Virus record (IMG/VR): IMGVR_UViG_2880406838_000002
Span: 1-18,486 of that record
From: a virus
Lineage: Duplodnaviria > Heunggongvirae > Uroviricota > Caudoviricetes
Length of the DNA stretch: 18,486 nucleotides
Strand: one strand, 5' to 3'
Within the stretch, counting starts at the first letter, position 1. Every line of letters begins with the position of its first letter. Below, in pieces: positions 12,001 to 15,000 of this stretch. The position numbers are program-made.

Positions 12001-15000
12001 GTCTGCTGGGTTTGCGCATGGGTTAAAGGATCCGCGCTCAACTTCTACTTCAACTGCGTCTCCGTTTACAATGTCTCCCTCAAATGAGACAAACACCATA
12101 TCGCCATTCTCACCTTCTTTGTAATCCGGCGATCCGTTATGAATGGCTTCGAATACCGCCACGTTAATTTCAAAATCACTTAACTGTGAATAATCCATTG
12201 TCATTTCCTCGCACGATGTCTTAGCCACCGGATATCCCACAGGTGAGCCGTGTAGTTGAAGGTTTTTACGTCAGATTCTTTTGGGATTGGCTTGCGTTTA
12301 TTTCTGGAGCGTTTCGTTGGAAGGTATTTGCAGTTTTCGCAGATGATGTCGGTGATACTTCGTCGCTGTGAACCGCCCCGGAAATCCTGGAGACTAAACT
12401 CCCTGAGAAAGAGGTAAACAGGATGACTAAAAATACTCGTTTTTCCCCCGAAGTCCGTCAGCGGGCGATTCGTATGGTTCTGGAAAGTCAGGATGAATAT
12501 GACTCACAGTGGGCGGCAATTTGTTCCATTGCCCCAAAGATTGGCTGTACGCCGGAGACTCTGCGTGTCTGGGTTCGCCAGCATGAGCGGGATACCGGGG
12601 GCGGTGATGGTGGGCTCACCAGCGCTGAACGTCAGCGTCTGAAAGAGCTGGAACGTGAAAATCGTGAACTGCGCCGCAGTAACGATATCCTTCGCCAGGC
12701 TTCCGCTTATTTTGCGAAGGCGGAGTTCGACCGCCTCTGGAAAAAATGATGCCACTGCTGGATAAGCTGCGTGAGCAGTACGGGGTCGGACCGGTATGCA
12801 GCGAACTGCATATTGCCCCGTCAACGTATTACCATTGTCAGCAACAGCGACATCATCCGGATAAACGCAGTGCCCGTGCGCAGCACGACGACTGGCTGAA
12901 GAGAGAGATACAGCGCGTATACGATGAAAATCATCAGGTGTACGGTGTGCGTAAAGTCTGGCGTCAGTTGTTACGGGAAGGAATCAGGGTGGCCAGATGT
13001 ACAGTGGCACGTCTCATGGCGGTTATGGGACTTGCCGGTGTTCTCCGGGGTAAAAAGGTCCGTACGACCATCAGCCGGAAAGCCGTTGCCGCAGGCGACC
13101 GCGTAAACCGTCAGTTCGTGGCAGAACGACCTGACCAGCTGTGGGTGGCTGATTTTACTTACGTCAGCACATGGCAGGGCTTCGTCTATGTGGCGTTTAT
13201 CATTGATGTGTTTGCCGGATACATCGTGGGGTGGCGGGTCTCATCGTCTATGGAAACGACATTCGTGCTGGATGCGCTGGAGCAGGCGTTGTGGGCCCGT
13301 CGTCCGTCTGGCACCATCCATCACAGCGATAAAGGCTCTCAGTATGTGTCACTGGCCTATACGGAGCGACTAAAAGAAGCCGGATTACTGGCATCAACAG
13401 GGAGTACAGGCGACTCGTATGACAACGCGATGGCTGAGAGCATCAATGGTCTTTACAAAGCGGAGGTAATACACCGTAAGAGCTGGAAAAACCGTGCAGA
13501 AGTGGAACTGGCCACACTAACGTGGGTGGACTGGTATAACAATCGACGATTGCTGGGAAGGCTGGGCCATACTCCTCCGGCAGAAGCAGAAAAAGCTTAT
13601 TATGCTTCCATCGGAAACGATGATCTGGCAGCCTGAGTTCACAGATAAAACACTCTCCAGGAAACCCGGGGCGGTTCATGCAGTCGCTTACAGCACAACT
13701 GCGACTGGGGCCGGCAGACATCCTGGAGTCAGATGAGAATGGCATTATTCCGGAGCAGGACAGGGTAATCACACAGGTGGTGATACTGGATACAGATAAA
13801 AAGCTGATACAGTGTGTGGTAAGACCGCTGCAAATCCTGCGTGCTGACGGGACGTGGGAAAATATTGGCGGGATGAAGTAACCCGACAGCTTCACAAAAC
13901 CGGAGTCCGGCTCCGGTTTTTGTTGTCATGTCATGGTGATGTTTGTTAAGAAAGTAAAGATTGATTCATTTTGAAGGTTGAAATGTATGCTATCACCATC
14001 TTCTGTAAATTTGGGGTGTTCATGGAATTCTTTAACCAGAAACCTGACTTCTCCTGACAGTCGTATTTTATCCTCTGTAAGGGATGCAGCTGCTAGCTCG
14101 GATAATGGGGCGCAAGTAAAGGTGGGCAACAGAACATATCGTGTTGTTGTCACTGATAATAAGTTTTGCGTTACAAGAGAAAGTCATAGTGGTTGCTTTA
14201 CTAATCTGTTGCACAGGCTGGGATGGCCTAAGGGAGAGATTAGCAGGAAAATTGAGGTGATGCTGAATTCATCGCCAGTGAATAGGGCTATGGAAAGAGG
14301 TGCTGTTCATTCGAATAGACCTGATTTACCTCCTGTTGATTATGCACCGCCAGAGTTACCGAGTGTGGACTATAACAGCTTGCCTGTGCCTGGTAATGTT
14401 ATTGGCAAAGGGGGTAACGCTGTAGTATATGAAGATGCTGAGGATGCAACAAAAGTCCTGAAGATGTTTACTACATCTCAAAGCAATGAAGAGGTAACAA
14501 ACGAAGTTCGTTGCTTCAACCAATATTATGGTGCCGGGAGTGCAGAAAAAATATATGGCGATAATGGCGATATTATTGGTATTAGAATGGATAAAATAAA
14601 TGGAGAATCGCTTTTAAATATTTCGTCCTTGCCGGCACAGGCTGAGCATGCCATTTATGATATGTTTGACAGGCTTGAGCAAAAAGGAATTCTTTTTATC
14701 GATACAACAGAGACAAATGTCTTATATGATCGCACGAGAAATGAATTTAATCCAATAGATATATCATCTTATAATATTTCTGAACGTTCATGGAGTGAAA
14801 ATCAAATAATGCAATCTTATCATGGAGGAAAGCAAGATCTTATTAGTGTGGTATTAAGTAAAATTTAGTAATTTTATCCAGTGTAGTGGATTTGTTGCAT
14901 GGATGGAGTTGGTAAAAAGTGGTGTGGCTGGCAATCCAGGCCGCGTCACAGAAATGGACAATGCCGCTGAGAGACTGGCGAATGGCATACAGGCACCAGA

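What the first reader, a model, noticed from the sequence alone, without database searches (positions are those of the whole stretch)
12201..13881. Second IS629 copy has no target duplication and joins truncated ninE to an unrelated 3' gene fragment
The flanks of this copy are CTG on the left and TGC on the right, so it is not a simple insertion. On the left it removes the first few codons of ninE, with the frame running cleanly into the IS end. On the right it abuts the tail end of an unidentified ORF that precedes the effector locus. This is the signature of an IS-mediated deletion or recombination between two IS629 copies that removed the intervening prophage genes, bringing the effector cassette next to the nin region.
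Basis: seen in the sequence. Interest (0 to 1): 0.45.

Follow-up and report, generated by a model that had tools for sequence, protein, structure and literature searches.

The report
IS629 deletion scar in O111 prophage
This insertion sequence is the single copy left after about 20 kb of a decaying prophage was lost between two IS629 copies, an ordinary kind of IS-driven prophage erosion in pathogenic E. coli; the one unusual detail is that the partner copy lay in the opposite orientation.

Summary
IS629 copy 2 (12369-13678, +) has no target duplication (…GCTG|IS|TGCA…). On its left is ninE lacking its first 3 codons. On its right are the last 203 of 270 nt of a tail-fibre C-terminal gene that precedes nleH.

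The locus is a defective lambda-like prophage at the ybhC/bio site of E. coli O111. Only 1 of 5,426 complete genomes (O111:NM 14614) carries this junction.

Strain 9662 has the parental layout. Replacing 21,694 bp of it with one canonical IS629 reproduces all 18,486 window bases with 0 mismatches. The lost DNA is ninE 5', ninB to ren, a resident IS629, portal to tail fibre, and a further IS629 copy, IS_T.

The right flank TGC is half of IS_T's 3-bp duplication, which is intact in 9662 and E2863. However, IS_T is inverted relative to copy 2, so ordinary homologous recombination cannot make this joint. The same swap of one IS end for the other at an unchanged boundary recurs in RM9131, 110512, OkiPb01689 and FWSEC0005.

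The left joint most likely came from a further canonical copy inserted in ninE, because the resident copy's marker SNPs are gone. No such intermediate was found.

Verdict: a known kind of event, of low interest.

The parts
12201..12368 (-). ninE remnant: codons 4-58 plus the stop; the first 9 nt (ATGAGACGA) and everything upstream are missing; no usable start codon
   Evidence: Pfam PF05322 listed for the homologous call (L019)
12369..13678 (+). IS629/IS1203 copy 2, 1,310 bp, canonical sequence identical to copy 1; IRL 12369-12393, IRR 13654-13678; orfA 12423-12749, orfB 12746-13636 (programmed -1 frameshift); no target duplication
12366..12368 (.). left flank CTG: inferred left half of the duplication made by an unsampled IS629 copy that inserted in ninE
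   Evidence: inference; no reciprocal half found
13679..13681 (.). right flank TGC: right half of the 3-bp duplication made by the inverted copy IS_T, seen intact (TGC-IS-TGC) in strains 9662 and E2863
13679..13881 (+). 3' 203 nt of the 270-nt tail-fibre C-terminal domain gene; the last A of the IS plus TG creates an ATG, giving a 67-aa ORF at 13678-13881
13987..14868 (+). nleH (type III effector kinase), the first gene of the effector cassette now lying next to the nin genes
   Evidence: L001 22588-23469
2861..4170 (-). IS629 copy 1 (IS_R): simple insertion in the lysozyme gene R with a 3-bp duplication GTC; used to fix the IS boundaries
18106..18486 (+). IS629 copy 3 (IS_E), cut off by the window end; simple insertion with duplication GAT in related strains

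Best explanation
Copy 2 is the one IS629 left after a 9662-like parental prophage lost 21.7 kb. The parent read: ...NinX-ninE-ninB-3 small genes (the last ren-like)-[resident IS629, +]-portal'-head-tail-tail fibre N-tail fibre C 5' 70 nt-[IS_T, IS629 in - orientation, duplication TGC]-tail fibre C 3' 203 nt-nleH.

Shown: the window equals that parent with everything from ninE nt 10 to the IRL end of IS_T replaced by one canonical IS629 in + orientation. The right flank TGC is IS_T's duplication.

Inferred, right joint: the IRR of a +-oriented copy was joined flush to the base where IS_T's IRL had been. Inverted IS629 copies present IRR and the reverse complement of IRL as short direct repeats (the last 13 nt identical, 22 of 25). 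I favour an abortive-transposition or IEE-type event, meaning a strand switch or end joining at transposase-cleaved IS ends. Simple slippage on the 13-nt identity is less likely.

Inferred, left joint: a canonical IS629 inserted into ninE in + orientation, duplicating CTG. It then served as the retained copy. This happened either in one flush deletion reaching IS_T, or after an earlier loss of portal-to-IS_T followed by homologous recombination with the resident copy.

Consequence: further decay of a prophage that was already dead. nleH keeps its own upstream region.
For:: the simulated product from strain 9662 matches all 18,486 window bases with 0 mismatches; the removed DNA is 1,372 + 1,310 + 17,702 + 1,310 bp. 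IS_T in 9662 and E2863 is a simple insertion (…ACGTGC|IS(-)|TGCAGTC…), and a simulated flush deletion in E2863 reproduces the window's right junction exactly; 9662 has all four IS copies; it also comes from the same state as 14614 and has a similar locus-tag series. Independent end-swaps at this locus: RM9131 has 'R 5'|IRR where all other strains have 'R 5'|IRL, on an IS carrying IS_T's marker at position 608. 110512 has IRR|GTCGCTT and OkiPb01689 has IRL|GTCGCTT, both 4 bp further in. FWSEC0005 has IRL joined to the inverted portal 11 bp in. Left joint: the resident copy in 32 O111 genomes carries 12 SNPs plus a 1-bp frameshift at IS positions 93-294. The only two lineages with left-flank loss (window/14614 and 95NR1/95JB1) are fully canonical there. 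Literature: iee is present in O111:H8, and IEE produces deletion of IS-flanking regions, from a few nt to more than 40 kb (PMC9397093; PMC9943667). A strand-switch model is given in bioRxiv 10.1101/2023.06.07.543989.
Against: No genome with an IS629 at the ninE boundary was found in either orientation, so the ninE copy is hypothetical. Strain 9662 shows that the resident copy can be partly converted to canonical sequence without any flank loss. The marker argument is therefore weaker if the true parent was already mosaic, with only 5 markers left. The enzymology (transposase, IEE, or slippage) is not tested, and iee was not checked in the source genome. Flank SNPs are too few to give a strain phylogeny, so the order and number of events (one 21.7-kb step or two steps) is unresolved.
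Confidence: 0.6

Rival explanations
1. A second IS629 inserted in + orientation at the same TGC of the tail-fibre gene in an ancestor lacking IS_T. Ordinary RecA recombination between direct copies then deleted the intervening genes.
For: IS629 has hit paralogues of this 270-nt gene at five or more other positions, each with a clean 3-bp duplication, so the gene is a recurrent target. Strain 11128 lacks IS_T.
Against: It needs an insertion at the identical phosphodiester as IS_T, in a lineage that otherwise shares IS_E and an intact cif with the IS_T-bearing strains. It needs the same coincidence again for RM9131 at the lysozyme site and for the 110512/OkiPb01689 pair. No +-oriented simple insertion at that site was found.
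Confidence: 0.12
2. No extra copy in ninE. The resident IS629 itself lost 1,372 bp of left flank through a transposase/IEE adjacent deletion, and its variant left part was separately converted to canonical sequence.
For: IEE-dependent deletions adjacent to IS629 are reported. Strain 9662 proves that conversion of this copy happens and repairs its frameshift, which could make it active in cis.
Against: Both independent left-flank deletions (window and 95NR1) are fully canonical over all 13 markers. Of 33 genomes with the undeleted junction, 32 are variant and one is partly converted.
Confidence: 0.2
3. Simple insertion with misjudged boundaries, or an assembly artefact.
For: None beyond the shared TG next to both IS ends.
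Against: The boundaries are fixed by copy 1 against an intact lysozyme gene. ninE and the tail-fibre gene are 20.4 kb apart and on opposite strands in every strain that keeps both intact. The junction is present both in the window and in the separately assembled 14614 record, which differ elsewhere.
Confidence: 0.02

Closest known systems
IS629-associated deletions and prophage decay in EHEC (Ooka et al. 2009 Genome Res; Kusumoto et al. 2011 Nat Commun on IEE; both cited via PMC9943667 and PMC9397093)
   Same: The same IS, the same kind of host (STEC carrying iee), and a prophage target. The deletion starts exactly at an IS end, spans kilobases, and leaves no target duplication.
   Different: Here the deleted stretch ends flush at the far end of a second, inverted copy, so one IS end replaces the other at an unchanged boundary. 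I could not read the primary papers, so I cannot say whether this exact class is described there.
Deletion by homologous recombination between directly repeated IS copies
   Same: Two IS copies bound the lost DNA, one hybrid copy remains, and each flank keeps half of a different duplication.
   Different: The partner copy found here is inverted. Recombination would invert the interval and could never attach IRR to the flank held by IRL.
Strand-switch model of IEE-assisted IS loss (Siguier/Chandler preprint, bioRxiv 10.1101/2023.06.07.543989; ISApl1/Tn6330 precedent)
   Same: Abortive copy-out replication switching template at short homology next to an IS end would yield exactly a flush or near-flush joint.
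   Different: That model was proposed for loss of a single IS using 2-4-nt flank microhomology. Here the homology would be the 13-nt identical termini of two copies about 19-22 kb apart, and one IS is retained.

Membership tests
IS629/IS1203 (IS3 family) | About 1,310 bp with about 25-bp imperfect terminal inverted repeats ending TG...CA | tested here: met
   1,310 bp; IRL and the reverse complement of IRR match at 22 of 25 positions
IS629/IS1203 (IS3 family) | Two overlapping ORFs (orfA, orfB) with a programmed -1 frameshift; HTH and DDE (rve) domains | tested here: met
   12423-12749, 12746-13636; PGAP: IS1203 family transposase, programmed frameshift, AL1L pseudoknot; PF01527, PF13276, PF00665, PF13683
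IS629/IS1203 (IS3 family) | A 3-4-bp target duplication flanking a simple insertion | tested here: not met
   CTG on the left versus TGC on the right. This feature defines a simple insertion, not the element itself. Copy 1 of identical sequence has one.
Deletion by homologous recombination between direct IS repeats | Partner copies lie in the same orientation in the parental arrangement | tested here: not met
   the copy holding the TGC boundary in 9662, E2863 and RM9131 is inverted relative to copy 2. For the left side the partner is unsampled.
Deletion by homologous recombination between direct IS repeats | The retained copy is a hybrid carrying the left part of one parent | tested here: inconclusive
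   the left part is canonical instead of the resident variant, as expected for a hybrid, but gene conversion is also documented in 9662
IEE/transposase-dependent IS-adjacent deletion | The deletion endpoint lies exactly at, or a few nt from, an IS end | tested here: met
   offsets of 0, 0, 4 and 11 bp in four strains
IEE/transposase-dependent IS-adjacent deletion | The iee gene is present and the event depends on transposase and IEE | not testable with these tools
   iee lies outside the window. The literature places it in O111:H8 SpLE1-like elements (PMC9397093). Dependence needs genetics.
NinE (PF05322) | Sequence identity to NinE next to NinX/NinF in a lambdoid nin region | tested here: met
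Phage tail fibre C-terminal domain (PF06820) | Match to the domain; position after the tail-fibre N-terminal gene in intact relatives | tested here: met

The most novel reading that the evidence does not exclude
Flush or near-flush collapse of two INVERTED IS629 copies to a single copy would be a distinct, recurrent reaction catalysed by transposase and IEE. It would work through synapsis or template switching between the ends of different copies, using their 13 identical terminal bases. This would give genomes a route to delete DNA between inverted IS pairs, which homologous recombination can only invert. At this one locus it would have happened about four or five times among roughly 40 O111 genomes.
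Probability: 0.4. Interest if true: 0.45.

Novelty: already known. Interest (0 to 1): 0.22.

Why it matters
The finding shows how a type III effector cassette (nleH, cif) survives while the phage that delivered it is dismantled by IS629. It also gives a base-exact parent and product pair (9662 and 14614/window) for an IS-driven deletion. The practical value is modest. It warns that an IS without a duplication can descend from an inverted partner copy. It also offers a natural substrate for testing IEE and transposase models. It does not change what is known about IS629 or EHEC prophage decay.

Tried and rejected
(1) Synthetic reciprocal junctions, namely IRR+CTG+ninE 5', tail fibre+TGC+IRL, and ninE flank+inverted IS: there was no contiguous hit. 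The two-piece hits were unrelated IS copies in other prophages (O26, O157, O121).

(2) The O145, O45 and other hits that seemed to share IS+nleH were IS copies elsewhere in the effector locus.

(3) Exact-protein look-up of the 67-aa remnant: it is not junction-specific in draft contigs, because the intact gene has an in-frame GTG at the same place. It did, however, reveal IS_T in complete genomes.

(4) Exact look-up of the 51-aa NinE: this is a natural short NinE of other lambdoid phages and is uninformative.

(5) SNP phylogeny from shared flanks: only 6 variable columns in about 15 kb, so there is no resolution.

(6) The hypothesis of an insertion hot spot explaining the 4-bp offset between the window and 110512 was dropped once IS_T and OkiPb01689 were found.

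(7) Ooka 2009 and Kusumoto 2011 could not be read.

(8) The terminator scan did not call the hairpin at 13896-13923.

Full report
**Observation**

The window holds three IS629/IS1203 copies: 2861-4170 (-), 12369-13678 (+) and 18106 to the window end (+). All are identical. The element's ends are fixed independently. Copy 1 interrupts the lysozyme gene R, and against the intact gene of strain 95NR1 it is exactly 1,310 bp plus a 3-bp duplication, GTC. With those ends, copy 2 is flanked by ...CGTCGCTG and TGCAGTCGC..., so there is no duplication.

On the minus strand, 12201-12368 encodes NinE from codon 4 to the stop. The intact 58-aa gene begins MRRQRRS. The frame remains open 47 codons into the IS but has no start codon.

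On the plus strand, 13679-13881 is the last 203 nt of a 270-nt tail-fibre C-terminal domain gene, followed by nleH and cif. Absence of a duplication is common for IS629: matching duplications were found at only 21 of 47 sites (PMC3271280).

**Context**

The window is a defective lambda-like prophage at the ybhC/bio site of E. coli O111. Its order is ybhC, int, R 3' part, IS629 copy 1, R 5' part, holin, esterase, Q, lpxR, ninH, rusA, NinF, NinX, ninE', IS629 copy 2, tail-fibre C remnant, nleH, cif, nleG remnants, IS629 copy 3.

Only one of 5,426 complete genomes, O111:NM strain 14614, has the junction. The window is not that RefSeq record. The record carries an extra inversion between copies 1 and 3, and one more C in cif.

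In all O111 strains, the nin-Q-lysis block is inverted relative to the head/tail/effector block. A resident IS629 ('IS_mid', + orientation) lies between a ren-like gene and a truncated portal gene. That older scar also has no duplication.

**Comparative series**

The left boundary of the IS has three states.
- State a: ren side, undeleted. Thirty-three genomes have it.
- State b: 1,311 bp further in, with ninE intact (95NR1 and 95JB1).
- State c: 1,372 bp further in, within ninE (the window and 14614).

The right boundary also has three states.
- State i: the truncated portal gene (11128, 95NR1, E2863, 9662).
- State ii: tail-fibre C gene nt 68 (the window and 14614).
- State ii': nt 72 (110512).

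**The partner copy**

Looking up the 67-aa remnant ORF showed that E2863, 9662, RM9131 and RM9975 have an IS629 immediately upstream of the same base. In E2863 and 9662 it is a simple insertion...ACGTGC|IS|TGCAGTC..., with duplication TGC.

However, this copy (IS_T) is in the minus orientation. Its IRL abuts TGCAGTC, whereas in the window IRR does. Homologous recombination between inverted copies inverts the interval and keeps each IS end with its own flank. It cannot make the window's joint.

**Parent and product**

Strain 9662 (Idaho, as is 14614) carries all four copies: the IS in R, IS_mid, IS_T and IS_E. I replaced its 21,694 bp from ninE nt 10 to the IRL end of IS_T with one canonical IS629 in + orientation. 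The result reproduces the entire window with 0 mismatches.

The replaced DNA has four parts:
- 1,372 bp: the ninE 5' end, ninB, three small genes (the last ren-like) and the spacer up to IS_mid
- 1,310 bp: IS_mid
- 17,702 bp: the truncated portal gene through the first 70 nt of the tail-fibre C gene
- 1,310 bp: IS_T

**How the right joint arose**

IRL and the reverse complement of IRR share their 13 terminal bases (22 of 25). Two inverted copies therefore offer short direct repeats at their ends. A deletion anchored there removes one copy plus the spacer, and leaves the old boundary abutting the other kind of IS end. Simulating this in E2863 gives the window's junction exactly.

The same signature occurs independently at this locus in four other lineages.
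- **RM9131/RM9975:** the R 5' part abuts IRR where every other strain has IRL. That IS carries IS_T's private marker at position 608 and abuts TGCAGTC with its IRL.
- **110512:** the variant IS_mid has IRR|GTCGCTT, 4 bp beyond the boundary, with a possible CA microhomology.
- **OkiPb01689:** IRL|GTCGCTT, next to int and R'.
- **FWSEC0005:** the IRL of a variant copy is joined to the inverted portal gene 11 bp in.

A mixture of flush and near-flush endpoints over 11-22 kb fits breaks or template switches at transposase-recognised ends better than it fits slippage alone. IEE is encoded in O111:H8 and generates IS-flanking deletions from a few nt to more than 40 kb (PMC9397093; PMC9943667). A strand-switch model exists (bioRxiv 10.1101/2023.06.07.543989). 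This step is inferred, not shown.

**How the left joint arose**

IS_mid in 32 genomes carries 12 SNPs and a 1-bp frameshift within IS positions 93-294. Both lineages that lost left-flank DNA (the window and 95NR1) are fully canonical there. Strain 110512, which lost only right-flank DNA, keeps the variant.

The simplest reading is that a canonical copy inserted into ninE in + orientation, duplicating CTG, and became the left part or the whole of the retained IS. Two routes are possible. One is homologous recombination with IS_mid after the right-hand loss. The other is a single flush deletion from the new copy's IRR to IS_T.

The rival reading is an adjacent deletion by IS_mid plus gene conversion. 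It cannot be excluded, because 9662's IS_mid is a mosaic (positions 93-141 variant, 164-294 canonical) with an unchanged flank. No genome shows an IS at the ninE boundary in either orientation.

**Comparison with what is known**

IS629-driven deletion and prophage decay in EHEC are well documented, including copies that lack duplications. The element meets every defining feature of IS629/IS3 except the duplication, which marks a simple insertion rather than the element itself. The event does not fit the textbook model of recombination between direct repeats on its right side. It does fit the class of IS-end-anchored deletions associated with IEE, whose enzymatic requirements I could not test.

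**Verdict**

The finding is an ordinary scar of IS-mediated prophage erosion, confined to one O111 sublineage. Its one point of wider interest is the recurrent collapse of inverted IS629 pairs to a single copy at an unchanged boundary. Interest 0.22; novelty: already known.

Noticed in passing
window 1-4170 and 18106-18486, compared with L001 (NZ_CP077460.1): The RefSeq record of strain 14614 has the segment between IS629 copies 1 and 3 inverted relative to the window, with exchanged flanks: espJ side|IS|R 5' part, and hyp|IS|R 3' part. This is a clean inversion by recombination between inverted copies. The window's source genome is not in the complete-genome collection.
   Followed up: partly
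window 15092-15922 (cif): cif is intact (276 aa) in the window, 110512, E2863, RM9131, 9662 and OkiPb01689. It carries one extra C (a frameshift) in 11128 and in the RefSeq 14614 record.
   Followed up: partly
L002 14342-15650 and pO111-type plasmids (H95-H114): The resident IS629 of this prophage is a frameshifted variant with 12 SNPs and a 1-bp deletion at IS positions 93-294. A near-identical variant left part (99.4%) sits on the roughly 65-83-kb plasmids of many O111 strains. A copy also sits in a tail-fibre C gene of the dusA prophage of strain SF4-1.
   Followed up: partly
L008-L011 and L015 (paralogues of the gene at window 13679-13881): IS629 has inserted independently, each time with a 3-bp duplication, at nt 57-59, 134-136, 161-163, 205-207 and 213-215 of paralogues of the 270-nt tail-fibre C gene, in O157, O121, O111 and a pig strain. 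IS_T at nt 68-70 makes a sixth site. This may be a regional target preference; it was not tested statistically.
   Followed up: partly
L003 (95NR1) 15031-16340: In 95NR1/95JB1 the unique DNA lost next to the resident IS is 1,311 bp, one base more than the IS length. The junction lies only 61 bp from the window's. This is unexplained and may be coincidence.
   Followed up: no
window 13896-13923 and 16761-16788: A GC-rich hairpin with a T-run (AAAACCGGAGTCCGGCTCCGGTTTTTGT) follows the tail-fibre C remnant and recurs at 96% identity 2.9 kb downstream. It looks like a terminator lying between the IS and nleH, but the simple scan did not call it.
   Followed up: no
window 9460-10419 (+): A lipid A deacylase gene (lpxR family) sits on the opposite strand between a truncated antiterminator fragment and Q. 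It looks like a moron inserted in the nin/Q region and is conserved in the O111 and O26 versions of this prophage.
   Followed up: no
window 1419-2860: The 3' end of lysozyme gene R lies 13 bp from the start of int, on the same strand. This is an IS-free junction showing that the whole early region (xis to P) and Rz/terminase were lost in an older rearrangement shared by all the O111 strains examined.
   Followed up: no
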